From Kiritimatiellia bacterium (GTDB taxonomy: Bacteria; Verrucomicrobiota; Kiritimatiellia; UBA8416; YA12-FULL-48-11): a DNA stretch of 64,000 bases. Below, in pieces: positions 4,264-25,136 of the stretch (the first letter of the stretch is position 1; the number at the start of each line of letters is the position of its first letter). Made by a program: the position numbers and the translations under genes. Below the pieces are notes generated by a model, which worked only from the letters and a program-made list of their open reading frames with translations, was not told where the DNA came from and made no database searches. The DNA is taken from NCBI GenBank assembly GCA_028716365.1, contig JAQUPZ010000001.1, forward strand, positions 839,393 through 903,392. Reading direction: 5' to 3'.

Positions 4264-5130
4264 TCAGTTATTGTCAGGGGTTTCGACGATCTGGGCTGAT
4301 TCGCGAATTTTATCAACTGCGCGGCCAATTTCGTCGTTTTTACGCTGGTCTTGAATATTCTTCCTTATATCTTTCTTAACCTTTTCAAATCCTATTGGCT
4401 GGGCGGGACGTTTTTCATGGACCTTTGCAATGTGATAGCCGAACTCGGTTCGGAACACATCACTTACCTGGCCTGGTTCGAGTGAGAAGACGACCTTGTC
4501 AAAGGATTCCACCATGGCGCCACGCGGGAACCAGCCGAGGTCCCCTCCGTTGTCGTTACAACTTGAATACTGCCTGGCAATCCGGGCGAAGTCTGCATCT
4601 TTGGTTACCTGTTCGCGAATGTTCATCATTTCGGCATGGAACATGCCGAAGTCCTCGTCACGCGACGGTTGGCGGAGAATATGCGAGGCGTGGACCATTT
4701 CGGCTGACTGAAAATCACTCTTATGTTCTTCGTAATATGCAAGGCATTCTTCATCAGTTGGCGCGGGGACGTCCTTGCAGATTTGCTTGAAGTATTTATC
4801 CAGCCTGACGCTGTCTGCGATTCCAGCCTTTATTTTTTTAACTTCGTCTTCAGGCATATTCGCCGCGGTTTCCTCATTGCCGTATTGCTTTATGAGGTTG
4901 GAGAATTCACGGTCGATCTCTGTCTGCGCAATGGTTGGGAATACCTTCCTGGCCTCCTGTGCAAGCAGGATCCGTTCGATTGCATTTTCCCGGGCATCGT
5001 TGGCAATTTGTGTTTCGCGATTCTGCATTTCATCTGGCGACATGTGTTCGCGATAGCGCTGTTGCAGCATCGTCAGTTCCTGATCGATCAATGCTTTTTC
5101 CAGTTTTTCCCCGTTAATAGTAATACTCAT
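4264..5130 (-). CDS. PpiC/parvulin-type peptidyl-prolyl cis-trans isomerase
   Basis: The C-terminal parvulin domain is present (ASHIL...GGDLGWFPRGAMVESFDKVVF...FGYHIAKV). I place the start at the internal ATG at 5130 because the upstream part of the ORF looks non-coding (AT-rich, odd composition). Confidence 0.65.
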   Translation of the reverse strand: MSITINGEKLEKALIDQELTMLQQRYREHMSPDEMQNRETQIANDARENAIERILLAQEARKVFPTIAQTEIDREFSNLIKQYGNEETAANMPEDEVKKIKAGIADSVRLDKYFKQICKDVPAPTDEECLAYYEEHKSDFQSAEMVHASHILRQPSRDEDFGMFHAEMMNIREQVTKDADFARIARQYSSCNDNGGDLGWFPRGAMVESFDKVVFSLEPGQVSDVFRTEFGYHIAKVHEKRPAQPIGFEKVKKDIRKNIQDQRKNDEIGRAVDKIRESAQIVETPDNN

Positions 5131-5315
5131 AGATATCTTTCTTTTATTGTTACAGGTGTGAAATTTGCGCGAAAAACGGTTGCAATACAAGACGAAATAA
5201 AAAATGACATAGTTGTAAACCTTGGTCATGTGAAGTATGTGACAAACTACTTGGCAATTGTTAAGTAACAGTCTATTTTTAACATGAATATCGCAGGAAT
5301 ACTTGGAGATATCCT

Positions 5316-6353
5316 ATGACGGAAAATCAGTGGAAGCAGTTGGTCAGGGTTGTTCAGGGAGAAGCTGTAAAACCATTGCCTGTCGGGTTCATAATTGACA
5401 GCCCGTGGCTGCCTGGCTGGTCGGGTATTTCAATTGTTGATTATTTTGCTTCTGAACAGATGTGGTTTGAAGCCAATCTCAAGGCCGTCAGGCGTTTTCC
5501 CGATGTTATTTTCCTGCCCGGGTTCTGGTCGGAATATGGCATGTGTACAGAGCCATCGGCATTTGGTTCGAAATGTGTATTTCACGAAAATGATCTTCCA
5601 TTTGCCGACAAAATAATCGAAACACCGCAACAGATGACATCACTCAGGAAACCTGATGTGAAGACGGACGGTTTACTTCCTTTTGCCCTGAAGCGGCTCC
5701 AGCACGCCCGAAAGGCAATTGAGAAAGAAGGACATGCAATCAAGTTTGCGGTGGCAAGGGGACCGCTGAATATTGCTTCGTTTTTGATGGGCGCGACTGA
5801 ATTCATGATCGCATTGAAAGAATCGCCGCAGGAAAGTCATGCCATGCTTAATACGATCACTGATTTTCTGTGTGACTGGATAAAGCTTCAAAAGGAAACT
5901 ATTCCATCGATTGAGGGTGTGTTCCTGCTGGATGATCTGGCAGGATTTCTGGGTGAGGAAGATTTCGTTGAATTTGCCACACCTTACCTGAAGAAATCAT
6001 TCAGTGCGGTTGATTCGAAAGTAAGGTTCTTTCATAACGATGCAGGCGGCTTGGTATGTGCGCCGCATCTTGCCGGTATTGGCGTTAACCTTTTTAATTT
6101 CAGTTTCCAGCATGGGATGAAAGAGATGCTTGATAAAACCGGCGGAAAGGTTTGCCTGCTGGGCAACATTCCGCCGCGTGACGTGCTGGCCAGCGGAAAG
6201 CCTGATGATGTGCGCAAGGGAGTCAAGGCGATGTTTGAAGGTGTTTCAGACCCGCGCAGAATCATTGCCTCATGCGGTGGCGGCATGTCGCAGAACACGC
6301 CGACGGAGAACATAGAGACATTTGTTGAAGCTGTCAGATTGTTGTCATTCTAA
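5316..6353 (+). CDS. Uroporphyrinogen-decarboxylase (URO-D)-like family protein
   Basis: The size is 345 aa and a GGAG SD lies upstream. Overall resemblance is to the URO-D/MtaA-like TIM-barrel family (weak, by eye). Confidence 0.4.
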   Translation: MTENQWKQLVRVVQGEAVKPLPVGFIIDSPWLPGWSGISIVDYFASEQMWFEANLKAVRRFPDVIFLPGFWSEYGMCTEPSAFGSKCVFHENDLPFADKIIETPQQMTSLRKPDVKTDGLLPFALKRLQHARKAIEKEGHAIKFAVARGPLNIASFLMGATEFMIALKESPQESHAMLNTITDFLCDWIKLQKETIPSIEGVFLLDDLAGFLGEEDFVEFATPYLKKSFSAVDSKVRFFHNDAGGLVCAPHLAGIGVNLFNFSFQHGMKEMLDKTGGKVCLLGNIPPRDVLASGKPDDVRKGVKAMFEGVSDPRRIIASCGGGMSQNTPTENIETFVEAVRLLSF

Positions 6354-6415
6354 AAGTCTGTCCGGTTGCTTCCTGAGATGACGTGGAAGATGACGACAAG
6401 CAACAATAAGGAGTT

Positions 6416-6706
6416 GTGATGATGAATGTGGATCAAAAGTCTTTGAAAAGAAAGGATAGAAACTTTGTAATAGTTTCTGCGATAGTGCTGATTGGGTTAA
6501 GCATCTGGAGTGAGGTTACACCAAAGATTTATTATCTTTCGAATAGATCGGTGATTATAGGAATAATAATGGCTCTCATATCTCCATTTGTAGTTCTCTG
6601 GTTTCAGAAATTATGGAATACGGTGGTTCCTGATATTACAGGTTGGCGAGCGATTACCTTTGTTGAAGCGCTAGGGCTGATTGCCCTGGCCTTGATTCTG
6701 GTTTAA
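6416..6706 (+). CDS. Small hypothetical membrane protein (2-3 TM)
   Basis: It is a 96-aa ORF with hydrophobic helices and an AGGAG SD upstream, in an AT-rich region. Confidence 0.3.
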   Translation: MMMNVDQKSLKRKDRNFVIVSAIVLIGLSIWSEVTPKIYYLSNRSVIIGIIMALISPFVVLWFQKLWNTVVPDITGWRAITFVEALGLIALALILV

Positions 6707-6966
6707 AGCAGTTAATCCTAATATAATATTTATATCAGACTTGAGTATAAATGACAAAGGCTTAATGTGTTGATATGAAAGGTGGGGTAAGTACAACGGC
6801 ATTATCGCCTATTCTCATTCGAAGATCAGTTACTTTTGCAACGTAACGGTCGATCGTTCATTTCCCATATGTGCCATTTCCGGACAAAAGGTTCAATTAT
6901 TTCTGTTTTATGTTTATCAGTCATAAATTTGTGATAATGTTCATATCCGTTTGGAGAGAGGTGCAT

Positions 6967-9477
6967 ATGAAACTTCGACTTATCCTGCTTGCTATAATAA
7001 TTCAGGTTTTTCCTTTGTATGCAGAACAAGTATTCGATGAGTTTGCAGAGCTGAAGAATGAAATTGTGTCCAGCAAAAACTGGGACAATGGAAGACTGTG
7101 GCGCGAAACCTTGCGGAAAGAAGCATTGATAATGGAAAACGACAGGACTCCCGTGGACATTGTCTGGCGCCGGACACTTGCCCTGTTGGCTGATATCAAA
7201 GCAATGAAGAATGTACCTGACCTTTCAGGTGAAACTGCGGCACTCCAGGCGCTTAAACAGGAGGTGGATGATCTTTACAGACAGAAAGATGTGCCAGAGA
7301 AAACTCAGCTCGCAATTTTCGAGAAAATCACGGCAATCAGGCGAAAGATAGCATTTAAAAACCCCATTCTCGATTTCGACAGGATCATTTTCCTGAAACA
7401 TAACAAGCAGGCAAAAGGTTCTATTCACATGATCGATCAGTACCTTGGTTTTAATGCTGAGAAAAAAGGCGGTGTTTATGTACTGGAGAAAGCTTTCAGT
7501 GATGCTCCGATATTGAAAAGTCTGACGAAAGATTTTCCGGTTGAAAAGGGAAGACTGAAAGGGCGCAGGCTTGAAGACAATGGATCATTTATTTCCCTTG
7601 AACTTGATTATGACGCCAGAACAATACTGTTTGGTTTTACCGAAGCCGAGGAAATTTCCAGGAATCGGGACTACAATACGCAGATGTATACCGAGGAAGA
7701 ATTACTTAAACGCATGCCGGGATACAAGACCTACTACTTCTGTCCTGAAACTACTTATCATGTTTTCAAGGCCAATGTCGATGGTTCGAATCTGCAGCAA
7801 TTGACGGATGGCAAATGGAATGAGTTTGACCCGGTCTTCCTGCCAAACGGCAGAATTGTTTTTGTGTCGGAGCGTGCGGAAGGTGCATGCCGGTGCGGTG
7901 CGAGACCTTTACCGTCTGCCACGCTGTTCTCGATGATGCCTGACGGCAGTGATATCATTCAGCTGAGCTGGCATGATACCAATGAATGGCATCCGAGCGT
8001 GGATAATAACGGCATGATTGTTTATACCCGGTGGGATTACGTGGACCGGGATTCCGATATTGCCCATCACATCTGGCATTGTTTTCCTGACGGCCGCGAT
8101 CCGAGGTCCCTGCATGGTAATTACCCTGAAATCCGTGAATTAAGGCCGTGGATGGAAATGTCCATTCGCGCCATTCCTGATTCGTCAAAATATGTAGCGG
8201 TTACTTCCCAGCATCATGGGCAGGCTTATGGGTCATTAATAATGATTGATTTACGGGAAAAGGATGATCGCAGTACTGCTCAATTGAAGAGAATTACCCC
8301 GGAAGCGCCTTTTGCTGAATCCGAATCTCTGCCCGGTGTTCCTTATAAAAAGGGGAAGAGGACAATAGCCGGCGAACGGTATGGTGCTCCGTGGCCTTTA
8401 AGTGACGATTATTACTTGTGTGTTTATGATCCGAAATGCTCCAAGTACGGGATTTATCTGGTAGACAGTTTTGGGAATCGGGAAATGATTTATTATGACC
8501 CGGCGACTTCATGCCTGGACCCGATACCTCTGAAACCACGAAATCGACCTCCAGCAATTCCAGTCAAGACAATACAGGCCAAGGTTGACCAGCCTGCAGG
8601 TAATGTGGATCTGTCGACGGGGAAGATTGCGGTAATGAATATTTATGAGAGCGAATTTGAATGGCCGAAGGATATAAAAATCAGGGAATTACGTATTGTA
8701 AATATTTTTCCGAAAGACAATTCAATCGCAGATGATCCGAATGTCGGAAAGGCCCGGCAATCGCTTTGTCGCGGGGTACTTGGGACCGTACCCGTTGGAG
8801 AGGATGGTAGTGTATATCTCGAGGTGCCTACAGGAGCAGGTATTTATTTCCAGGCGCTGGATGAAAATGGAATGGCAGTACAAACGATGCGTTCAGACAC
8901 GTATGTGCACCCCGGCGAAACCCTGACCTGTATTGGTTGCCACGAGTCTAAATATAATATCATGAGTAATAAGGAGCGGCAGATTCCCATGGCACTGAAA
9001 CGCCAGCCATCGAAACTTAAATCGGAATGTGAAGGTTCTTATCCATTGACATTTTCCAGATTGGTCCAGCCGGTTCTAAATAAACATTGCGTTACCTGCC
9101 ATGACCAGAAGAAAAAGGCGCCGAATCTTCATGGTGATGTTTTCACTTCTCATGGATGGTCACAGGCGTTTATGTCGCTTCAAAAATATGGCTGGGGAAG
9201 AAGCGGCGGGAATGGGATAATTTTCAGCGAAGGACGGCAGTATTCAATCCCAGGGCAGGACTGTGCAAGAGTTTCAAAGCTCTATGACCTGCTGAAGCGC
9301 GGGCATAACGACGTAAAGCTTTCACCAGAAGAACTGCGACGCATTACCCTGTGGATAGACTGCAACAGCAATTTCTACGGTGCATATCATGATATTGAGA
9401 AACAGGCAAAGGCTGAAATAGTAAAACCAAAATTCGGCGTACCTGACTGGACAGAGTTTGAAAAAATAGTGCGCTAA
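6967..9477 (+). CDS. Secreted PD40/TolB-like beta-propeller di-heme (2x CXXCH) protein, HzsA-like family, paralog 1
   Basis: A signal peptide follows the ATG at 6967, which has a good SD. It carries CIGCH and CVTCH motifs. Motifs shared with the three paralogs include TRWDYVDR, YLVDxFGN, DPIPLKPRNRPP, TVPVGEDGS, YFQALD..MRSDT and WIDCN...Y. Confidence 0.75.
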   Translation: MKLRLILLAIIIQVFPLYAEQVFDEFAELKNEIVSSKNWDNGRLWRETLRKEALIMENDRTPVDIVWRRTLALLADIKAMKNVPDLSGETAALQALKQEVDDLYRQKDVPEKTQLAIFEKITAIRRKIAFKNPILDFDRIIFLKHNKQAKGSIHMIDQYLGFNAEKKGGVYVLEKAFSDAPILKSLTKDFPVEKGRLKGRRLEDNGSFISLELDYDARTILFGFTEAEEISRNRDYNTQMYTEEELLKRMPGYKTYYFCPETTYHVFKANVDGSNLQQLTDGKWNEFDPVFLPNGRIVFVSERAEGACRCGARPLPSATLFSMMPDGSDIIQLSWHDTNEWHPSVDNNGMIVYTRWDYVDRDSDIAHHIWHCFPDGRDPRSLHGNYPEIRELRPWMEMSIRAIPDSSKYVAVTSQHHGQAYGSLIMIDLREKDDRSTAQLKRITPEAPFAESESLPGVPYKKGKRTIAGERYGAPWPLSDDYYLCVYDPKCSKYGIYLVDSFGNREMIYYDPATSCLDPIPLKPRNRPPAIPVKTIQAKVDQPAGNVDLSTGKIAVMNIYESEFEWPKDIKIRELRIVNIFPKDNSIADDPNVGKARQSLCRGVLGTVPVGEDGSVYLEVPTGAGIYFQALDENGMAVQTMRSDTYVHPGETLTCIGCHESKYNIMSNKERQIPMALKRQPSKLKSECEGSYPLTFSRLVQPVLNKHCVTCHDQKKKAPNLHGDVFTSHGWSQAFMSLQKYGWGRSGGNGIIFSEGRQYSIPGQDCARVSKLYDLLKRGHNDVKLSPEELRRITLWIDCNSNFYGAYHDIEKQAKAEIVKPKFGVPDWTEFEKIVR

Positions 9478-17592: not shown

Positions 17593-17789
17593 CCCTCTTC
17601 TTGGTTCTGGCTAATTATAACGACAAATTGTACTAAACAATTGAGTGTTTTATTTATGCATATTATCCTGGTAATGTCGCTTAATTTCGTTTCACCGCTG
17701 CTTGATACTGGTAGAAACTTAACGTGAGGATGCCTTTGTCATCCTCAAAAAACATTTGTCCGGATAATACTGTTATGCGAGGAGATAAA

Positions 17790-19313
17790 ATGGCAGATAG
17801 CAATCTCTTGTTTCGAAGACAGTTCTTGCTGACGCCTGATGCCTGTTCATCTCTCAGTCATTGGCAGCATATACACGTTGGGATTTTTCATATATATGCA
17901 CACCCTGACGTACAACTTTCTACCGTAACATCAGCAGATACAAATGTAACTCTCTCGCTCGTGGGATACATCATCGATCCCAATTTCCCGGAGCGATCAA
18001 ATACAGATGTATTAAACACGATTGCCAGCCTCGGCGATTCAGTTGAAAATATTAGCGACTATCTGTGTGCCCTTTCCGGTCGTTTTGTTTTAATACTAAC
18101 AACCGCAAAGGAAACATTACTGTTTCATGATCCATGCGGATTGCGAACTGTATACTATACAAAATATGAAGGCAAAGTATTCGTTGGTTCGCAGCCGTAT
18201 ATCTTCAAACAGGTTATGCCTCTAAAGGATGGAGAACTCTTCTCGTCCTTTTTCAGATCATCATACGCAAAGCGTAATATTGAATATTGGATACCCAGCG
18301 GGTGCTCACTTTTTGAGGAAGTACACCATTTAATCCCTAATCACTATCTACGCCTTTCAACGCTTGAACAGATAAGGTATTGGCCTAAAAGGATATTGCT
18401 CCAGAAGCGTGTGGATGAAGTCATAACTGATGCCTCTGATCTTTTAAAGAAACTGATGATTGCTGCAAACAACAGATTTAAGCTCGCTCTACCGGTTACA
18501 GCAGGATGGGACTCAAGAATACTTCTTAGTGCTTCAAAGAGTATTTCCAGGGAAATCTACTTTTATACATTGCAATATCGCAACCTTAATTCCAGGTCAA
18601 GCGACATCAAAATTCCGGCAGAGCTATTACGATCTCTTGGCTTACGTCACAATCTTATAGATTGTCGTAAAACTATTTCTGATGAATTTATCGAAATATA
18701 CCGGCGGAATTCGCCGCTTGCGCACATAGAGGACTGGGGAAAAATAGCATACGGAATGATTGATAAGTATCCACAAGACAGGGTAGCCATTAAAGGGAAC
18801 TGTTCCGAAATTGCGAGGTCTTTTTATTATAAATACGGTTTTCATCGACCGATTATTTCTCCTGATCAGATCGTTGCACTTGTGAATGGCTGGCAGACGA
18901 TACCGTTTGTACGCGATCAGATTTTTACCTGGTATAATCAAGCCATTGAAGTGGCTGCTGAAACAAACATGGATATTCTTGATCTATTCTACTGGGAACA
19001 CCGAATGGGCAGTTGGCAGGCACAGAGTCAGCTTGAATGGGATATAGTCCAAGAGGCATATACTCCATTCAATCACAGAGGACTTCTCGAACTCATGCTT
19101 GGTGTTTCTACGAATTTACGAAGTGCTCCCAATTACAGCTTGTACAAAATGATGTTCAAACTTCTTTGGCCGGAAGTCATGAAACAGCCCATTAACCCTA
19201 CAACAACAATGAACAGGCTGAGGAAAATCTTAAAGCACGGTATTTATGAAATAGCGAGGAGAGTCTACGCATATGCTGTCCGGAAAAACGGAAACAATGG
19301 GAAATGGCAATAA
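17790..19313 (+). CDS. Asparagine-synthetase (AsnB)/lasso-cyclase-like amidotransferase homolog, divergent, no N-terminal Cys nucleophile
   Basis: A GAGGAG SD lies 5 nt upstream. An AsnB glutaminase-domain-like stretch is present (GRFVLIL...LFHDPCGLRTVYY). A degenerate PP-loop (LPVTAGWDSR) replaces the usual SGGLDS. GC is low (about 43%) relative to the neighbouring genes. Confidence 0.5.
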   Translation: MADSNLLFRRQFLLTPDACSSLSHWQHIHVGIFHIYAHPDVQLSTVTSADTNVTLSLVGYIIDPNFPERSNTDVLNTIASLGDSVENISDYLCALSGRFVLILTTAKETLLFHDPCGLRTVYYTKYEGKVFVGSQPYIFKQVMPLKDGELFSSFFRSSYAKRNIEYWIPSGCSLFEEVHHLIPNHYLRLSTLEQIRYWPKRILLQKRVDEVITDASDLLKKLMIAANNRFKLALPVTAGWDSRILLSASKSISREIYFYTLQYRNLNSRSSDIKIPAELLRSLGLRHNLIDCRKTISDEFIEIYRRNSPLAHIEDWGKIAYGMIDKYPQDRVAIKGNCSEIARSFYYKYGFHRPIISPDQIVALVNGWQTIPFVRDQIFTWYNQAIEVAAETNMDILDLFYWEHRMGSWQAQSQLEWDIVQEAYTPFNHRGLLELMLGVSTNLRSAPNYSLYKMMFKLLWPEVMKQPINPTTTMNRLRKILKHGIYEIARRVYAYAVRKNGNNGKWQ

Positions 19314-19440
19314 GAAGGGTTTGTTCAAAAAAAGCATGGAATATAACTTTTCCGGAGATTCTTTCTGCTTTTCTATAATGCTTTGAAGAAGCTCCAATAA
19401 AATCTTGCTGCCAATCGTAACAGTGTTAGCATTTTGATAA

Positions 19441-19508
19441 TTAACCGGGACAAGAGCGCTGGAACCGGTGTTTCAGAATTGCTCCCCAAAAAAGCAATTT
19501 CTTGTAAC
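19441..19508 (+). promoter_or_regulatory. Conserved 68-bp leader element, copy 1 (contains palindrome AATTGCT-N9-AGCAATT at 19476-19498)
   Basis: It is about 94% identical to 22170..22237. It ends 20 nt before the ATG of the 19529 gene. An SD (AGGAG) follows it. Confidence 0.6.
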
Positions 19509-19528
19509 TTAACTTTAGGAGTCGTGAC

Positions 19529-21223
19529 ATGTTTCAGCAGCGATTCATTTGTGTGTGTATGATTTTCACCGTCTTGATTCCCATCGCAGTGTCCGCCGAT
19601 TTGAAAGTGTGGACACTCGCCCAAACGGAGCGTGTTCTCCGTGATACGTTACCGGGCGAGGGACTACCGGTCCATATCGCGGCAGCGAAGAATGAGTGGG
19701 AGAGTTTTCAAATTATCGTCCGTTCGGACAAGCCGGTAGGGGGGATCACCATCGAGGCTGGCAAACTCAGGGGGCCATGGTTTTCACACATTCGGGCAAG
19801 AGATGCCCGCCTCTTCCGACAGCACCAGATGGAACTCACAGTTCCCACGTACAGAAACAGTAGTTTCAAAGAGGGGTGGTATCCCGACGCCCTGATCCCG
19901 TTTTTTCATCCGGTCACCGGCGAGGCCTTGTTGAATGCGCGGCTCAAGGCCGTACCGTTCAACCTGCCCGCCAATGAAACGCATGGTTTCTGGGTAGATA
20001 TTTATGTCCCCAAAAACGCCAAAGCCGGCAAATACAAAGGAACGTATGTACTGCGAAGCTCTGTCAAGACGGTCAAAATTCCGGTCGCGCTGACGGTATG
20101 GGATTTCACGCTGCCGCGTGTGGCAACGATCAAGACCTCTCTTGGCTGGCCTCCGGATAGAATGCGCAGCTATTACAAGCAGCGGGCAAAAGACGGCAAG
20201 GAAGAAGAACCAAAAGACTGGGATGCCATCGAGACACAGTGCGCGGAGATGATGACGCAACACCACATCAATTGCTGGCCGCCCGTCCCCTGGATGACGC
20301 CCAAGGCGCAGTCGGATGGCTCGTTCAAGATTCCTTCAGAGAACATCGAGGCATATAGAAAGTTCGTTGATCAGTATCAGGTCAACGCTCTTCAGACGCC
20401 ACATCCCGGAAGTGTTGTCAAGGACCCGGATGCAGATAAGGAAAAATTACATGCCTGGCTCAAGGCATGGACCGACGCCGCGAAGGAACTGGATCGTACG
20501 AACATTGTCTTTTACACCTATCTCAGGGATGAACCAAACGACGAGGAAGCCTACAAGTATGTCCAGAAATGGGGACGGGCGATCTGCCCCGTGAAGTCGG
20601 CGCTCAAGGTGATGGTTGTTGAGCAGACGTGGACACAGGATGAGAAGTGGGGTGATCTCTATGGCGCCGTTGACATCTGGTGCCCGCTGTTCTCATTATT
20701 CAAGCCGGAAAGCGCGGCAAAACGCCAGGCGCTCGGTGAAACCATTTGGACCTATACTGCCCTCTGCCAGCGTGATCCGACACCCTGGTGGCACATTGAT
20801 TTTCCGCTCCTGAACTATCGCGTGTCGTCTTGGATCGCATGGCGCTATCGAATGCGCGGTATCCTCTACTGGGGTGGCATGTCGTACTGGCGGGGTGTGG
20901 ACGATCCGTGGACTGACCCGAAGACGCTTGATCGTCGCAAAAACGGCAAAGGTCCCAACTACAACGGCGAGGGCAGTCTTCTCTATCCGGCCCGTGCAGT
21001 CGGCTATGAGGGCGTTGCGCCCAGCCTGCGATTGAAGGCCCTGCGCGATTCATTCGAAGATTACGAGTATCTCTCCATCCTGGAGCGTGCCGGTCTGGCC
21101 GATCAAGCACAGGAGATTATCATGCCCCTCGCTGGTTCATGGTTTAAATGGGATAGTGATCCCGCGGCCTATGAAAAGGCACGGGCCAAGCTGGCCGAGA
21201 TGATCGTGAAGGCGAAAAAATGA
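19529..21223 (+). CDS. Secreted hypothetical protein (possibly DUF4091/GH123-like glycoside hydrolase)
   Basis: A signal peptide is present. The gene is high GC (about 58%). The family assignment is only a weak recollection. Confidence 0.45.
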   Translation: MFQQRFICVCMIFTVLIPIAVSADLKVWTLAQTERVLRDTLPGEGLPVHIAAAKNEWESFQIIVRSDKPVGGITIEAGKLRGPWFSHIRARDARLFRQHQMELTVPTYRNSSFKEGWYPDALIPFFHPVTGEALLNARLKAVPFNLPANETHGFWVDIYVPKNAKAGKYKGTYVLRSSVKTVKIPVALTVWDFTLPRVATIKTSLGWPPDRMRSYYKQRAKDGKEEEPKDWDAIETQCAEMMTQHHINCWPPVPWMTPKAQSDGSFKIPSENIEAYRKFVDQYQVNALQTPHPGSVVKDPDADKEKLHAWLKAWTDAAKELDRTNIVFYTYLRDEPNDEEAYKYVQKWGRAICPVKSALKVMVVEQTWTQDEKWGDLYGAVDIWCPLFSLFKPESAAKRQALGETIWTYTALCQRDPTPWWHIDFPLLNYRVSSWIAWRYRMRGILYWGGMSYWRGVDDPWTDPKTLDRRKNGKGPNYNGEGSLLYPARAVGYEGVAPSLRLKALRDSFEDYEYLSILERAGLADQAQEIIMPLAGSWFKWDSDPAAYEKARAKLAEMIVKAKK

Positions 21224-21731
21224 TATTGATCCCTTCTAACCCTGACTAAGAATGTCACGCTGGGAAATAGAATTTTGTCCTGATTTTGCCTAATCACTAT
21301 TTACGACTGATTAGCCCGGATATTTCTCAGAGCGGCCAAAGAAGCCGTAACCAAAGAGAGAAGTGGTGTGCATTTTGCAGGGAAGCCGATAAGCGTCTTT
21401 TGCACGCCGACTTTGTTGCTGCAAGCGGTGCAGATGCATATCTAGCCCCGCTTGCAGACGCCGTGTCGGCATCACAAAATCCACTTACCGTTTCCCTGTC
21501 CCCATGGATCCCCAAAATGCACACCACGGCCTGTCATCCGTATCCGTCGACCGACGGATACGGAACTTAAGAAATTTTCTCAGGAAAAGAAAAAAATACC
21601 GGATAATAGTATGAGTAAGAGATTGGCTCATGCATAAGCGCTTTTGCGACAATCACTTTACCGCACCGTAAAAGTTTCGACTGCGTGCTATTGCACTTTG
21701 CTCAAGATGACCCTTCGTCGCGTCGAAAGGT

Positions 21732-21827
21732 AAATCCTGCCTTCGTCCCGAGTTCCTCAGACCGAGAGGATCAAGTCCGTCGAAGAACGGACACGCCGAA
21801 GCCCTTCGGGCGGATATTGCAGGATTT
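21732..21827. ncRNA. Candidate structured RNA element: 9-bp closing stem (AAATCCTGC/GCAGGATTT) enclosing about 78 nt with three internal hairpins
   Basis: Inverted repeats are visible in the sequence. One hairpin has a UUCG-type loop (GCCC-TTCG-GGC). It lies in a 1-kb non-coding gap. Confidence 0.3.
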
Positions 21828-22169
21828 TGATACTATTACCCGTCAACATTTTCCTGTTTTGAGAAGATTTTCTGCCGCGATAAAGATTGTCTCTTGATTC
21901 CGGATCAATCCGCCGATCGGCGGATTGTGTAAACCGTGTCACGAATTTCTATTCTTCGGTGAAATATTTGATGTCAGATGCCGTTGCAGCACGGCAAAAG
22001 GATCGGCGCTGTATATGCATACGCGCCGCATCCTTTCAACACAGCTGCAACGAGCAGATCACATCACAAGATTTCACCGGAAATTCGTAACACTCTTTAA
22101 CTCTAAACAGCGGCGAAATCTGAAATAACTGCTTGTAGCAAGGCATAACCGTGATAGGATTTCCTTAAC

Positions 22170-22237
22170 TAACCGGGACAAGAGCGCTGGAATCGGTGTT
22201 TCAGAATTGCTCCCCAATAAAGCAATTTCTTATAAAC
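22170..22237 (+). promoter_or_regulatory. Conserved 68-bp leader element, copy 2
   Basis: It is near-identical to 19441..19508 and contains the same AATTGCT-N9-AGCAATT palindrome. It ends 18 nt before the ATG at 22256. Confidence 0.6.
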
Positions 22238-22255
22238 TCAACTGACAATACAATC

Positions 22256-23377
22256 ATGAACCAAATCCTTTGTCTCCGTCATAGTCGTACCCGTTCTGGC
22301 AGCTTTGTGCTGTGGGCGGCCATCGCATTCCTCGTAACAACATTGGCATCGGCTCCGCTTTTCGCGGCAGAGGGGCCGCTGGCGTTTTCCGTCGATAAGA
22401 AGACGCAGAGCTACACGATCTCCGAGCAGGGGAAACCGGTTTTGACCTATCGATTTGGCGAAGTTCCGCTTCCGGCAGGGGTCACGGCGCATCATTTTTC
22501 CAAGGGCAACACACCGTATAACGGTGCCTACTTTACCGACGGAAGCCAATTCGGCGGCGCACGGAGCGACTACATTTATCCGCTCTACGGTTTCAACGGT
22601 GAGACACTCACCGCCGACTACCCCAAAGATCATATGCATCACCGAAGTCTCTGGTGGAGCTGGTGCGAGGTTCGCATGAACGACAAGATCGGCGATATTT
22701 GGGCCGTATGCAAAATCCGCGCCTACCCGGTCGAAATCACCAAAATGGAAGCCAGTGCCGATTCCGCCTTTCTCCAGGCGGTGAACATCTGGAGGTATGA
22801 CGATAATCCGGCTGATATCGTGCAAGAGATCGTGACGATTCGTGCCTTCAAGACCGAAGGGATGCCGGGAGCGAGGAGCCGCGCGGTCGATGTTGATGTC
22901 AGGCTCGAGGCGTTGGTCGACGGCGTGGCCATTACCGGCCGCCAGAAAGTCGACTACGGCGGTTACGGCGGAATGACGGTCCGGATGAATCCGGACGTGA
23001 AAGAGTTTTCGATCCGCGCCGTTCATCCGAACCCGGACAAGTGGCGCGGCGACGATCTGAAGATTGTGGAACGGGTGACCGATCCGGCAAAGTTCGGCAA
23101 TGCCGCCTGGATGGCGCTTTACGGCAAGTACCCGGCCGCCGGGATCGAAACTCCCGGCTTCACGACCGTCATGATGTTTGAGTCAAAGGCTACGCCGCTC
23201 TTCCCCAACAATTTCCGCTATTATGGCTCGACCTGCATTTCATTGGCCTTTCCCGCGAAGACGATTGTCCCGCTCGCAAAGGGCAAGCCGCTCGACTACA
23301 AAACCCGCTTTGTGATTTGCGAGGGGAAAACGACCATTGATCGGGAAAAAGCGCTGTGGCATGCGTATCAGCACTAG
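22256..23377 (+). CDS. Secreted DUF6807 (PmoA-like) family protein
   Basis: A signal peptide is present. The family motif HMHHRSLWWS is present. I place the start at 22256 because the upstream GTG-initiated ORF runs through the conserved leader, which is non-coding in copy 1. Confidence 0.6.
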   Translation: MNQILCLRHSRTRSGSFVLWAAIAFLVTTLASAPLFAAEGPLAFSVDKKTQSYTISEQGKPVLTYRFGEVPLPAGVTAHHFSKGNTPYNGAYFTDGSQFGGARSDYIYPLYGFNGETLTADYPKDHMHHRSLWWSWCEVRMNDKIGDIWAVCKIRAYPVEITKMEASADSAFLQAVNIWRYDDNPADIVQEIVTIRAFKTEGMPGARSRAVDVDVRLEALVDGVAITGRQKVDYGGYGGMTVRMNPDVKEFSIRAVHPNPDKWRGDDLKIVERVTDPAKFGNAAWMALYGKYPAAGIETPGFTTVMMFESKATPLFPNNFRYYGSTCISLAFPAKTIVPLAKGKPLDYKTRFVICEGKTTIDREKALWHAYQH

Positions 23378-23600
23378 TGGTCCGTGGAGTTATCGTGCCG
23401 TCTGGGCGGACTTACGCAACGCGACGTGGATTGGCATTACGTATGCTGAATGGGTCAGCCAGGCAATAGGGTATTGACGCGTGGAGTGTTGATGCAATAG
23501 ATTGCGGACATGGCAACGCAAACATGGTTATGGTTTATGCCAATGTTAAAAATCAATTTCTTATAACATTTAATATGCCATTGGGAGTTTAATCTGTATC

Positions 23601-25136
23601 ATGAACAGGATCTTTTGTACCCGCTATTTTCGAGGTCGATCTGACAGCATCATTTTGTGGATAGCCATAGTATTTCTTGTGACAATATTGGCACCGGCCG
23701 AGCTGTACGCCGGCCGCAACTTGATTCGCCGGGAGAACAAAAAAGCAGGTACGTCGGATTGGCAATTGACATATGTTCGTCTCGACAAGGCAGATCGTAC
23801 TGGTACCCGTTCTCCCGGTATTGAAGGCTACTGCTCGCGACAATCGGTTGCCGCCGGGGAATCGATCGAATTCTTTGTCAGCACTGAGCCGGCGTGCAAC
23901 TTCACCCTGGAGATCTTTCGGATGGGCTACTACGGAGGTTTGGGTGCCCGGCTGATGAAAACGTTGGGGCCTTTGACCGGCAAGACGCAGGCCCTGCCGC
24001 CGGTCGGTCCCCGGCGAATCCGCGAGTGCCGCTGGGAGTCCAGCGCCAAGTTGCTGATCCCGGCCGATTGGCCAAGCGGCGTCTACTTGGGTCGGCTGTC
24101 CCGAGTGCCAAATCCCGACGGTACGATGCCCTGGCAGAGCTACGTGGTGTTCATTGTTAAGGATGACCGTCCAGCCGACATTCTCTTACAGTGTCCCGAC
24201 AACACTTGGCAAGCCTACAACCGTTGGCCCGACGAATATTCGCTGTACATCGACCCGGGGAACAAATTTGCCTGGTGTAACACCAACGTCGATGTCAGCT
24301 TCAACCGGCCCTACGGCAAATACGTGCAGATTTACGAGAACCCGCAGTCCGTCGGTTCAGGCGAATTCCTGTGCTTTGAGTTTCCATTGTGTTATTGGCT
24401 GGAACAAAACGGATATGATGTCAGTTATTGCTCCAACAGCGACATGCTCACACCGGACCGCGCAGCAAAGTGCAAGGCCTTTATCAGCGTGGGACACGAC
24501 GAATACTGGGATCTGCGCCAGTATGAGAGCGTACTGAAGATTTCGCGCAGCGGTACCTGCGTGTTGTTCCTGTCGGGTAACTCCATTTGCTATGTGACGC
24601 CGTTCCGCCCGGGGCCCGATGGTTGTCCCAATCGGATTATTTCCCGCAAAGGCCCATATCAGGGGCTGACCATGGGTGCGGAACCGCCAACGAACAAGTT
24701 TGAATACGTGGGACCGGATGAAGGTCTATTGCTCGGTGCCCGCAATATCCTGCCTGTTAACGGCGGAGGCGACTGGGTCTGTACCAAACCGGAACACTGG
24801 ATATTTGCCGGCACGGGGATGAAAAAAGGCGACAGGATTCGCGGACTGGTAGGCTGGGAATTCCATGGCGATCCCCCGCCAATCAAGGGCTTGGAGGTGG
24901 TGGCCGAGGGCATTGCTTTGCACGGTGGTACGCGTCCCGTTCCATACCAGGCCACGATCTACCCCACTGAGAAAGGTGGTTTTGTTTTCAACGCCTCGAC
25001 CATCTTCTGGTCCACGGGCTTGAGTACTCCGCCAGGGCACATGCCACTGTGGAGCCATAACACGCGGCCCAACGGTCCAGACCCGCGAGTACAGCAGATC
25101 ACACACAACCTGCTGCGGCGTGCCATTAAGCGGTAG
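23601..25136 (+). CDS. Secreted hypothetical protein, possibly N,N-dimethylformamidase large-subunit-like (DmfA2-type) domain
   Basis: Its N-terminal 40 aa are homologous to the N-terminus of the 22256 protein. A TWQAYN motif is present. The family call is weak. Confidence 0.4.
   Translation: MNRIFCTRYFRGRSDSIILWIAIVFLVTILAPAELYAGRNLIRRENKKAGTSDWQLTYVRLDKADRTGTRSPGIEGYCSRQSVAAGESIEFFVSTEPACNFTLEIFRMGYYGGLGARLMKTLGPLTGKTQALPPVGPRRIRECRWESSAKLLIPADWPSGVYLGRLSRVPNPDGTMPWQSYVVFIVKDDRPADILLQCPDNTWQAYNRWPDEYSLYIDPGNKFAWCNTNVDVSFNRPYGKYVQIYENPQSVGSGEFLCFEFPLCYWLEQNGYDVSYCSNSDMLTPDRAAKCKAFISVGHDEYWDLRQYESVLKISRSGTCVLFLSGNSICYVTPFRPGPDGCPNRIISRKGPYQGLTMGAEPPTNKFEYVGPDEGLLLGARNILPVNGGGDWVCTKPEHWIFAGTGMKKGDRIRGLVGWEFHGDPPPIKGLEVVAEGIALHGGTRPVPYQATIYPTEKGGFVFNASTIFWSTGLSTPPGHMPLWSHNTRPNGPDPRVQQITHNLLRRAIKR

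What the first reader, a model, noticed from the sequence alone, without database searches (positions are those of the whole stretch)
19441..22237. Duplicated 68-bp leader carrying a 7-bp palindrome (AATTGCT-N9-AGCAATT) upstream of two unrelated secreted-protein genes
19441..19508 and 22170..22237 are about 94% identical. Each lies 18-20 nt upstream of a start codon (19529 and 22256). Both contain the perfect inverted repeat AATTGCT ccccaa(a/t)aa AGCAATT. The right half of the motif (CAATTTCTTATAAC) also recurs about 30 nt upstream of the third gene, at 23601. Two readings fit. It could be an operator for a dimeric regulator. It could instead form a 5'UTR hairpin (7-bp stem, 9-nt loop) acting as an RNA regulatory element. 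Translating through the element gives an in-frame stop in copy 1, which argues it is non-coding.
Basis: seen in the sequence. Interest (0 to 1): 0.6.

Follow-up and report, generated by a model that had tools for sequence, protein, structure and literature searches.

The report
Solo IS91-type transposon ends as promoters
The duplicated "leader" is most likely the promoter-bearing right end of a rolling-circle (IS91/ISCR-type) insertion sequence, left without its transposase gene in front of two, probably three, neighbouring secreted-enzyme genes; it is a new example of a known way for mobile DNA to supply promoters.

Summary
The repeat is real. 19441-19508 matches 22169-22236 at 63/68 positions, and weaker similarity runs upstream to about 120 nt. 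It is not private to this window. A metagenome scan found 10 more copies upstream of unrelated genes.

All copies share the same anatomy:
- an invariant TTG (-35), then 16-17 nt, then TGnTAnnAT (extended -10), then an invariant AA (probable start site);
- a roughly 65-nt block more than 90% conserved, holding two small palindromes;
- a sharp 3' boundary at ...AAAAAGCAATTTCTTAT, after which nothing aligns.

In one Lentisphaerae locus the unit directly follows an IS91-family (Y2 HUH) transposase gene and ends 216-221 nt after its stop codon. A five-copy IS91-family element in Trichlorobacter lovleyi ends 232 nt after its stop with AAAAAGCAAATTCCTAT-T, a 15/17 match at the same terminal position. 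Published ISCR1 and ISCR27 oriIS cores are ...CTTCCTATACC.

The best reading is therefore solo oriIS-type IS ends whose outward sigma70-type promoter now reads into the GH123-like and DUF6807 genes. A second subfamily sits before the third gene.

The operator and riboswitch readings gain no support: there is no Rfam hit, folding is not significant, no covariation is seen, and the left palindrome arm is dispensable. This is a new member of a known kind.

The parts
19320..19505 (+). Copy W1: solo right-end module of an IS91-family element, about 185 of about 221 nt. There is no transposase gene upstream.
   Evidence: blastn homology to L071 and to the region after the transposase gene in L094 (window 19305/19320-19503). 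Alignment A3. No transposase remnant in the window.
19405..19440 (+). Outward sigma70-type promoter of W1. The -35 is TTGCTG (19405-19410), followed by a 16-nt spacer, TG at 19424-19425 and the -10 TAGCAT (19427-19432). The invariant AA at 19439-19440 is the predicted transcription start.
   Evidence: TTG, TA..AT and AA are invariant in 10 aligned copies, whereas the spacer and the middle of the -10 vary. Coordinates were checked. The start site is predicted, not measured.
19441..19505 (+). Palindrome 1 is CTGGAA (19459-19464) / TTTCAG (19471-19476). Palindrome 2 is AATTGCT (19477-19483) / AGCAATT (19493-19499). The terminal 17-mer AAAAAGCAATTTCTTGT (19489-19505) is the oriIS-like core.
   Evidence: Alignment A2 of 11 copies. 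The terminal 17-mer matches the terminus of the T. lovleyi IS at 15/17. Homology ends at 19505.
19529..21223 (+). Downstream gene 1: a secreted GH123-like (DUF4091) protein.
   Evidence: Pfam GH123_cat and Glyco_hydro_123_N_2. Orthologues at 76% identity in L099 and L100 lack the element.
22114..22233 (+). Copy W2: solo right-end module, about 120 nt. The -35 is TTGTAG (22133-22138), TG is at 22152-22153, the -10 is TAGGAT (22155-22160) and the AA is at 22167-22168. The palindromes are at 22187-22204 and 22205-22227. The terminal 17-mer ATAAAGCAATTTCTTAT is at 22217-22233.
   Evidence: nhmmer E = 4e-34. Alignments A2 and A3. Coordinates checked.
22256..23377 (+). Downstream gene 2: a DUF6807 / PmoA-family protein with a signal peptide.
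   Evidence: Pfam DUF6807. Homologues at 76-87% identity sit in other contexts with a different promoter.
23474..23564 (+). W3: a module of a second subfamily. It has a promoter-like TTGACG-18-TAGATT (23474-23503), a block CATGGTTATGGTTTATGCC..., and the terminal motif AAAAATCAATTTCTTAT (23548-23564).
   Evidence: Promoter scan. An 82.6% match over 45-46 nt (window 23523-23567) to the opposite strand of L094, again ending at the motif. The terminal motif has 1 mismatch; four matches within 3 mismatches were found in the window against 0.33 expected, three of them W1-W3 with 1 mismatch each.
23601..25136 (+). Downstream gene 3: a DMFA2_C-domain protein. Its 37-residue signal peptide is homologous to that of gene 2.
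   Evidence: Pfam. BLASTP of the N-termini gives 22/39 identical, E = 2e-10. DNA alignment A5.

Best explanation
The 68-mer is the terminal, oriIS-type segment of the non-coding right end of an IS91/ISCR-family (HUH Y2, rolling-circle) insertion sequence. The weaker similarity upstream of it is that element's outward-facing sigma70-type promoter with an extended -10. In the window the two copies, plus a third of a related subfamily, are 'solo' ends: the transposase gene is gone. Each lies 19-35 nt before the start codon of an unrelated exported-enzyme gene. Most likely they now act as transplanted promoters plus a roughly 65-nt transcribed leader for those genes, as the POUT promoters in the oriIS region of ISCR1 do for resistance genes. 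The two small palindromes are best read as the subterminal hairpins that such transposases recognise, and AAAAAGCAATTTCTTAT as the conserved terminus. Shown here: the family of copies, its anatomy, its sharp 3' end, its linkage to a Y2 transposase gene in one lineage, and the match to a bona fide IS terminus. Inferred: that the promoter fires, that the solo copies descend from full insertions, and that the palindromes are transposase sites.
For: (1) Twelve copies in all. There are two in the window and ten in JGI metagenome contigs. They lie upstream of unrelated genes: GH123-like, DUF6807, BNR sialidase, apiosidase-like, Gfo/Idh/MocA, a xylose-isomerase-like TIM barrel, and unknown proteins.
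(2) The anatomy is conserved. TTG, TGnTAnnAT and AA are invariant, the next roughly 65 nt are more than 90% identical, and similarity is lost abruptly after ...TTCTTAT.
(3) In L094 (Lentisphaerae bacterium RIFOXYA12_FULL_48_11) the unit directly follows a gene with Y2_Tnp and Zn_Tnp_IS91 domains. Homology to the solo copies starts at that gene's stop codon. The boundary lies 216-221 nt after the stop. The left edge of the IS, defined against a degenerate second copy, lies 16 nt before the start codon and carries a 9-bp palindrome GTGAAACTG-N17-CAGTTTCAC.
(4) The closest multi-copy relative (41% aa) is in T. lovleyi pIAE1. Five identical copies with five different flanks define an IS running from -104 to +232. 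Its terminus reads ...TTGACG-18-TGgTATACA-...-AAAAAGCAAATTCCTAT-T|. The best local alignment between its 232-nt right region and that of L094 is exactly this terminal 17-mer (15/17). Only 3 of 500 shuffles reach that score, and the match is terminal in both sequences.
(5) Literature agrees. The ISCR1 oriIS is GTGGTTTATACTTCCTATACCC at the right end (PMC13023784). The ISCR27 oriIS is GCGGTTGAACTTCCTATACC, 236 bp after the stop (PMC8894482). The 232-bp oriIS region of ISCR1 holds outward promoters that drive downstream genes (PMC6218425). The oriIS of IS91 and IS801 has two imperfect subterminal palindromes and an adjacent target tetranucleotide (PMC13181058).
(6) Orthologues of the downstream genes in relatives lack the unit, so it is gained or lost gene by gene.
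(7) CAAC follows the boundary in 7 of 11 informative copies.
Against: Only one independent locus links the unit to a transposase gene; L107-L114 are the same locus. None of the 11 solo copies keeps any detectable transposase remnant, including the 890 nt of non-coding DNA before W2. The T. lovleyi IS has no perfect palindrome of 6 bp or more in its right region. The core TTCTTAT differs by one base from the ISCR consensus TTCCTAT. No empty site was available to show insertion. Eight of ten informative copies point into a gene that starts within about 100 nt, which needs selection or a target preference to explain. The very high conservation of the core in solo copies could instead reflect a host function. 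The genome-contig scan found only chance hits, so copy number in any complete genome is unknown. Transcription from the promoter is predicted only.
Confidence: 0.65

Rival explanations
1. Host cis-regulatory 5' leader RNA. The roughly 65-nt block is a structured 5'UTR (a protein- or ligand-binding element, an attenuator or a stabiliser) shared by a regulon of exported glycan-degrading enzymes. It would have spread with its promoter by recombination, and the adjacency to an IS in one lineage would be coincidental.
For: A conserved promoter places the block at the 5' end of the transcript. The block is far better conserved than the promoter spacer. In the helix CUGAAAU/GUUUCAG all 5'-arm changes keep pairing: A-to-G at two positions and U-to-C at one, giving 100% of cells paired. 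Two mutually exclusive folds exist, a long hairpin versus the palindrome hairpin followed by UUUCUU. A group II intron in L070 sits exactly after that U-rich tail.
Against: There is no Rfam hit even at E < 5. Fold z-scores are -0.35 to -0.98. No compensatory pair is seen, and the 3' arms were fixed by the search pattern, so the test has little power. The preferred fold differs between copies. The terminal 17-mer is shared with the terminus of an IS in an unrelated phylum, which an RNA regulon does not explain. Two copies (L079, L094) have no co-oriented downstream gene.
Confidence: 0.15
2. DNA operator(s). The inverted repeats AATTGCT-N9-AGCAATT and CTGAAA-N6-TTTCAG, downstream of the start site, would bind a dimeric transcription factor that co-represses the downstream genes.
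For: There are two perfect or near-perfect inverted repeats in both window copies. Their position just downstream of a promoter is compatible with a roadblock repressor.
Against: The right arm is broken in L073 (two mismatches) and L097 (one mismatch), and the spacer is 8 rather than 9 nt in L094. The A-to-G changes in CTGAAA break the DNA dyad but keep RNA or single-strand pairing. The right half recurs without the left half at W3, on the L094 minus strand and in T. lovleyi. About 65 contiguous nt are conserved, far more than an operator needs. No regulator gene is consistently adjacent.
Confidence: 0.07
3. A promoter cassette propagated by recombination or gene conversion (a generic 'putative mobile promoter') with no transposon ancestry. 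The similarity to IS termini would be fortuitous.
For: It meets the operational definition: at least 50 nt at 80% identity or more upstream of non-homologous CDSs (PMC3488235). The 5' limits of similarity fade at different points in different copies. W2 and W3 also share a signal-peptide module, which shows that local recombination occurs.
Against: The sharp common 3' end, the conserved flanking CAAC, the position 216-221 nt after a Y2 transposase stop codon, and the end-anchored 15/17 match to a bona fide IS terminus are not expected under this reading.
Confidence: 0.1

Closest known systems
The oriIS region of ISCR1 with its outward promoters POUT (PCR1-1, PCR1-2)
   Same: It is a non-coding region of about 220-235 bp downstream of an IS91-family transposase gene. 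It ends in a conserved oriIS core (...TTCCTATACC there...TTTCTTATC here). It contains sigma70-type promoters that read out of the element into whatever gene lies next (PMC6218425, PMC13023784, PMC8894482).
   Different: The host is an environmental PVC-type bacterium, not clinical Gammaproteobacteria. The downstream genes are secreted glycan-degrading or oxidoreductase enzymes, not resistance genes. The window copies have lost the transposase gene entirely. Promoter activity is not measured. The core differs by one base.
Right ends (oriIS) of IS91 and IS801
   Same: There are two imperfect subterminal palindromes within the last roughly 80 bp, a single palindrome at the other (terIS) end, and a short conserved sequence abutting the oriIS end (CTTG/GTTC there, CAAC here on the transposase-sense strand) (PMC13181058).
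   Different: Sequences are unrelated apart from the short core. The polarity and role of CAAC were not established. No transposition data exist.
Putative mobile promoters (Matus-Garcia et al. 2012, PMC3488235)
   Same: These are homologous 50-100-nt upstream regions, at 80% identity or more, in front of non-homologous genes. That study also found that many such families are really IS ends.
   Different: That category is operational. Here an origin (an IS91-family end) and an anatomy can be assigned.
Integron attC sites / Vibrio cholerae repeats
   Same: These are repeats of about 120 nt, in one orientation, between unrelated genes.
   Different: The element has no end-to-end dyad symmetry, no RYYYAAC/GTTRRRY core sites and no integrase nearby, and it carries a promoter. 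By inspection it is not a member.

Membership tests
IS91/ISCR-family insertion sequence, right (oriIS) end | An HUH Y2 transposase gene (Y2_Tnp + Zn_Tnp_IS91) immediately upstream on the same strand, in at least one family member | tested here: met
   L094: Pfam Y2_Tnp at 1.7e-27 and Zn_Tnp_IS91 at 5.3e-16. The unit starts at that gene's stop codon. This is only one independent locus.
IS91/ISCR-family insertion sequence, right (oriIS) end | A transposase gene adjacent to the copies in this window | tested here: not met
   tblastn of the L094 transposase against the window at E <= 10 finds nothing. The window copies are solo ends.
IS91/ISCR-family insertion sequence, right (oriIS) end | The terminus lies about 200-240 bp downstream of the transposase stop codon | tested here: met
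   L094: 216-221 nt. T. lovleyi IS: 232 nt. ISCR1: 232 bp. ISCR27: 236 bp (PMC6218425, PMC8894482).
IS91/ISCR-family insertion sequence, right (oriIS) end | A terminal sequence homologous to termini of bona fide family members | tested here: met
   AAAAAGCAATTTCTTAT against AAAAAGCAAATTCCTAT at the defined end of a five-copy IS gives 15/17. It is the best local alignment, 3/500 shuffles reach it, and it is terminal in both. The core TTCTTAT matches the ISCR consensus TTCCTAT at 6/7 (literature).
IS91/ISCR-family insertion sequence, right (oriIS) end | One or two subterminal palindromes at oriIS and one at terIS | tested here: met
   CTGAAA-N6-TTTCAG and AATTGCT-N8/9-AGCAATT lie within the last 50 nt. 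GTGAAACTG-N17-CAGTTTCAC lies at the left edge in L094.
IS91/ISCR-family insertion sequence, right (oriIS) end | A sharp end of homology with unrelated flanks in different copies | tested here: met
   All copies lose similarity after ...TTCTTAT(C). W3 and the L094 minus strand do the same at the same motif.
IS91/ISCR-family insertion sequence, right (oriIS) end | A specific target tetranucleotide abutting oriIS, and no target-site duplication | tested here: inconclusive
   CAAC follows the end in 7 of 11 copies; the others have CAAT, CAGT, AAAC or AACT. No empty sites were available, so duplication could not be tested.
IS91/ISCR-family insertion sequence, right (oriIS) end | Rolling-circle transposition initiated at oriIS | not testable with these tools
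   This needs mating-out or nicking assays.
Putative mobile promoter (operational) | At least 50 nt at 80% identity or more upstream of non-homologous CDSs | tested here: met
   120 nt at 81% and 68 nt at 93% between W1 and W2. The downstream proteins are unrelated.
Cis-regulatory RNA / riboswitch | A match to a described family, or a conserved structure supported by covariation | tested here: not met
   Rfam gives no match at the gathering threshold and none at E <= 5 that overlaps the 68-mer. There are 0 compensatory pairs. Fold z-scores are -0.35 to -0.98. Power is limited because 18 columns were fixed by the search pattern.
Transcription-factor operator | Both half-sites and their spacing conserved across copies | tested here: not met
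   The right arm is mutated in L073 and L097. The spacer is 1 nt shorter in L094. The right half occurs alone at W3, on the L094 minus strand and in T. lovleyi.

The most novel reading that the evidence does not exclude
The solo ends may not be dead relics but working rolling-circle origins. The literature says that about 100 bp of oriIS plus transposase supplied in trans is enough for one-ended mobilisation. On that basis, directly repeated oriIS modules such as W1, W2 and W3 would delimit nick-to-nick 'cassettes', each made of a gene plus a promoter-bearing oriIS. An ISCR-like system would then shuffle secreted glycan-degrading enzyme genes among Planctomycetes, Verrucomicrobia and Lentisphaerae, with each cassette's promoter driving the next gene in the array. 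This would fit three observations: three consecutive modules in one orientation here, two modules about 6.5 kb apart in the L073/L092 lineage, and downstream genes that have homologues at 75-88% identity in quite different contexts and phyla.
Probability: 0.15. Interest if true: 0.75.

Novelty: new member of a known kind. Interest (0 to 1): 0.42.

Why it matters
It explains a striking non-coding repeat without invoking a new regulator. It also extends the ISCR1-type phenomenon, IS91-family ends that donate promoters, from clinical resistance plasmids to environmental PVC bacteria and to polysaccharide-degrading gene clusters. If the promoters are active, three adjacent enzyme genes owe their transcription to transposon debris. 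That is relevant to how such clusters are assembled and rewired, and it warns against reading repeated palindromic 'leaders' as riboswitches or operators before mobile-element ends are excluded.

Tried and rejected
- **Rfam.** Searches at the gathering threshold on the whole window and at E <= 5 on 19200-23700 found nothing relevant.
- **Single-sequence folding.** Both strands of both copies gave non-significant results.
- **Genome-contig scan.** The pattern AATTGCT-N9-AGCAATTTCTT gave 65 loci. None had similarity to the element beyond the pattern in blastn, so they were treated as chance; L016, L047 and L060 were read by eye. L060 lies inside a methyltransferase gene and L016 is unrelated. 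The source genome was not found there.
- **Viral-contig scans.** Two scans gave 0 hits.
- **Orthologue route.** Upstream regions of homologues of DUF6807 (L002-L004), GH123 (L099, L100) and BNR (L101-L105) carry no element. This gave no unbiased extra copies for covariation.
- **Covariation.** Counting on 11 copies was uninformative, because the search 18-mer fixed one arm of each helix.
- **Small-ORF reading.** Rejected because of the stop in copy 1 and the 1-nt indel in L094.
- **Integron attC reading.** Rejected on inspection: there is no end-to-end dyad and there are no core sites.
- **Terminator or attenuator reading.** Kept only as a minor possibility. The stem has two G-C pairs and a 9-nt loop, and the terminator scan does not call it.
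- **Sigma-54 and ECF promoter readings of TGGAAC...** Rejected, because most copies read TGAAAT there.
- **Transposase remnants upstream of solo copies.** None found.
- **terIS-like palindromes upstream of solo copies.** None found, so these are not two-ended miniature elements.
- **blastn of the L094 right region against plasmids.** No match.
- **Independent contexts for the L094 transposase.** All eight further contigs are the same locus.
Full report
**Observation.** The two copies are real. Neither half has any match in 100 shuffles of the window. The repeat is longer than reported. Weaker similarity (65%) continues 52 nt upstream, giving about 120 nt at 81%. It ends abruptly at 19505/22233, and the next 55 nt are only 24% identical. 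The 7-bp inverted repeat with a 9-nt spacer occurs only in these two places in the window. The partial motif before the third gene is at 23554-23567. The downstream proteins are unrelated: a GH123-like protein, a DUF6807/PmoA-family protein and a DMFA2_C protein.

**Known RNA families and folding.** Rfam gives nothing at the gathering threshold for the whole window, and nothing relevant at E <= 5 around the element. Single-sequence folds of either strand are no better than shuffles, with z-scores from +0.44 to -0.98.

**More copies.** The window matches NCBI MAG GCA_028706615.1. A scan of species-representative genomes with the palindrome plus tail gave 65 loci; none showed similarity to the element beyond the pattern in blastn, so they were treated as chance. 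A metagenome scan with the central 18-mer gave 29 loci, and ten of these carry the whole unit.

Including the window there are 12 copies. Their downstream genes are unrelated:
- two BNR sialidase-family genes;
- an apiosidase-like GH140;
- a TAT-exported Gfo/Idh/MocA oxidoreductase;
- a TAT-exported xylose-isomerase-like TIM barrel;
- a 683-aa protein of unknown function.

Close orthologues of the GH123-like gene (76% aa), of DUF6807 (81-87%) and of the BNR gene (81-88%) in other genomes have no such unit upstream. The unit therefore belongs to a narrow lineage and is gained or lost gene by gene.

**Anatomy (alignments A2 and A3).**
An invariant AA follows 7-8 nt downstream. This is the conservation signature of a sigma70-type extended -10 promoter and its start site.
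- In the window the promoter elements are TTGCTG 19405-19410 with TAGCAT 19427-19432, and TTGTAG 22133-22138 with TAGGAT 22155-22160.
- The predicted start sites are at 19439-19440 and 22167-22168.
- From there about 65 nt are more than 90% identical in all copies, ending ...AAAAAGCAATTTCTTAT. After that nothing aligns.
- CAAC follows the end in 7 of 11 informative copies.

That is a prediction, not a measurement.

**RNA or operator?**
- Per-copy partition functions show the 7-bp hairpin dominating only in W1 and L084.
- No pair shows a compensatory change. Because my search pattern fixed columns 31-48, one arm of every helix could not vary, so the test has little power.
- The only mild hint of single-strand pairing is that all three kinds of change in CUGAAAU keep pairing (A-to-G at two positions, U-to-C at one). 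I estimate this has roughly a one-in-ten chance of arising by accident.
- Against an operator: the right arm is mutated in L073 (two positions) and L097 (one position), and the spacer is one base shorter in L094.
- The right arm with its tail also occurs without any left arm, as described below.

**The transposon link.** In L094 the unit lies directly after a gene with Y2_Tnp and Zn_Tnp_IS91 domains, that is, an IS91-family HUH transposase. Homology between L094 and the longer solo copies (L071, W1) begins at the transposase stop codon. The exact protein belongs to a Lentisphaerae MAG (RIFOXYA12_FULL_48_11). Eight further contigs carrying it are all the same locus, so this is one independent observation.

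A degenerate second copy in L094 defines the left edge of the IS. It lies 16 nt before the start codon and carries a perfect 9-bp palindrome, GTGAAACTG-N17-CAGTTTCAC. The right region holds CTGAAA-N6-TTTCAG and AATTGCT-N8-AGCAATT, and it ends 216-221 nt after the stop. Downstream of the unit in L094, a minus-strand secreted-protein gene is cut off after about 35 codons. This fits insertion of a segment whose right edge is the unit.

**Independent support.** The closest relative of that transposase in the plasmid collection (41% aa) is multi-copy in Trichlorobacter lovleyi pIAE1. Five identical copies with five different flanks define that IS as running from -104 to +232 relative to the gene. 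Its right region contains an outward TTGACG-18-TGgTATACA promoter-like site and ends ...GAAAAAGCAAATTCCTATT|flank.

The best local alignment between that 232-nt region and the L094 right region is the terminal 17-mer: AAAAAGCAAATTCCTAT against AAAAAGCAATTTCTTAT, at 15/17. Only 3 of 500 shuffles reach this score, and the match lies at the extreme end of both sequences.

Published oriIS cores read the same way:
- ISCR1 has GTGGTTTATACTTCCTATACCC at its right end (PMC13023784).
- ISCR27 has GCGGTTGAACTTCCTATACC, 236 bp after the stop codon (PMC8894482).
- The 232-bp oriIS region of ISCR1 carries two outward promoters that raise expression of downstream genes 13- to 15-fold (PMC6218425).
- The oriIS of IS91 and IS801 has two imperfect subterminal palindromes and an adjacent target tetranucleotide, and terIS has one palindrome (PMC13181058).

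The element matches this description feature by feature.

**The third gene.** Its upstream region has its own promoter-like site, TTGACG-18-TAGATT at 23474-23503. It also has a block CATGGTTATGGTTTATGCC... and the terminal motif AAAAATCAATTTCTTAT at 23548-23564. The same block plus motif occurs on the opposite strand of L094, 7 nt before another start codon, and similarity again stops at the motif. I read this as the right end of a second subfamily. W2 and W3 differ upstream of the motif but are homologous downstream of it, through 37 codons of signal peptide. The motif is thus a junction between independently assorting blocks, as expected for an insertion end.

**What is inferred rather than shown.** I have not shown that the promoter fires. 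I have not shown that the solo copies descend from full insertions; no transposase remnant survives, and no terIS-like palindrome lies upstream of them. I have not shown that the palindromes are transposase sites, and the T. lovleyi IS lacks perfect palindromes in its right region. The strong conservation of the core in solo copies, and the fact that 8 of 10 informative copies point into a gene starting within about 100 nt, could mean that the host now uses the leader. The RNA-leader reading therefore keeps some weight, at about 0.15.

**Verdict.** The feature is real and non-coding. It is best explained as solo oriIS-type ends of an IS91/ISCR-family element that donate an outward promoter and a roughly 65-nt leader to adjacent exported-enzyme genes (confidence 0.65). 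It also satisfies the operational definition of a putative mobile promoter (PMC3488235). It is a new member of a known kind, of moderate interest. The more novel reading is that the solo ends are live origins delimiting mobilisable enzyme-gene cassettes. This is not excluded, but it has only circumstantial support (about 0.15).

Noticed in passing
window 22256-22370 and 23601-23715: The DUF6807 and DMFA2_C genes are otherwise unrelated but share a homologous N-terminal signal peptide of about 37 residues (22/39 identical, E = 2e-10) and the few bases before the ATG. The DUF6807 homologues elsewhere have a different, shorter N-terminus. This suggests swapping of a 5'UTR-plus-signal-peptide module.
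   Followed up: partly
window 21224-22113: About 890 nt between the GH123-like gene and copy W2 have no convincing ORF, no Rfam or Pfam signal and no match to any fetched locus. The stretch contains several G+C-rich hairpins. It is not a detectable transposase remnant.
   Followed up: partly
window 17724-19313: The gene ending 7 nt before copy W1 has about 40% G+C against about 55% for its neighbours. It shows only a weak asparagine-synthase/GATase_7 similarity and is probably foreign DNA abutting the element.
   Followed up: partly
L070 551-729 (minus strand of the locus); compare L075: A group II intron (Rfam group-II-D1D4-4, 68.9 bits, E = 1.6e-13) begins exactly after ...GCAATTTCTTAT in L070. 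The 95%-identical allele in L075 continues CAACTTGG... into an apiosidase-like gene. The insertion point therefore coincides with the element's 3' boundary.
   Followed up: partly
L094 (as oriented for the analysis, about 4470-8270); the same locus in L110-L114: This is a region rich in mobile elements. It contains a degenerate fragment of the Y2 transposase gene, an AbiEii/AbiEi toxin-antitoxin pair, the intact transposase gene with the element, a truncated secreted-protein gene, and a Y1 (IS200-like/REP-associated) transposase homologue. The toxin-antitoxin pair sits on the terIS side, where IS91-type elements capture DNA.
   Followed up: partly
L047 5160-5190 and 5444-5911: In a deltaproteobacterial MAG fetched by chance, a 10-bp-arm hairpin AATTGCTGCA-TCT-TGCAGCAATT lies about 240 nt beyond the stop of a Y2-transposase fragment. 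It is inverted relative to the arrangement in L094. It may be a terminator or a related IS end, and this was not resolved.
   Followed up: partly
L002 9800-10000, L003 9800-10000, L004 3550-3751: DUF6807 homologues in three unrelated contexts share a different conserved upstream block (CCTTGAC-N18-TCTAATAG ... AATCAAAC..GAGAGAGGAG). This gene therefore also seems to travel with a promoter and leader of its own.
   Followed up: no
L073 13116-14110 and L092 1-997: These two metagenome contigs overlap at 91% identity. In that lineage two copies of the element therefore lie about 6.5 kb apart in one orientation, with three genes between them. This resembles the tandem arrangement in the window.
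   Followed up: partly
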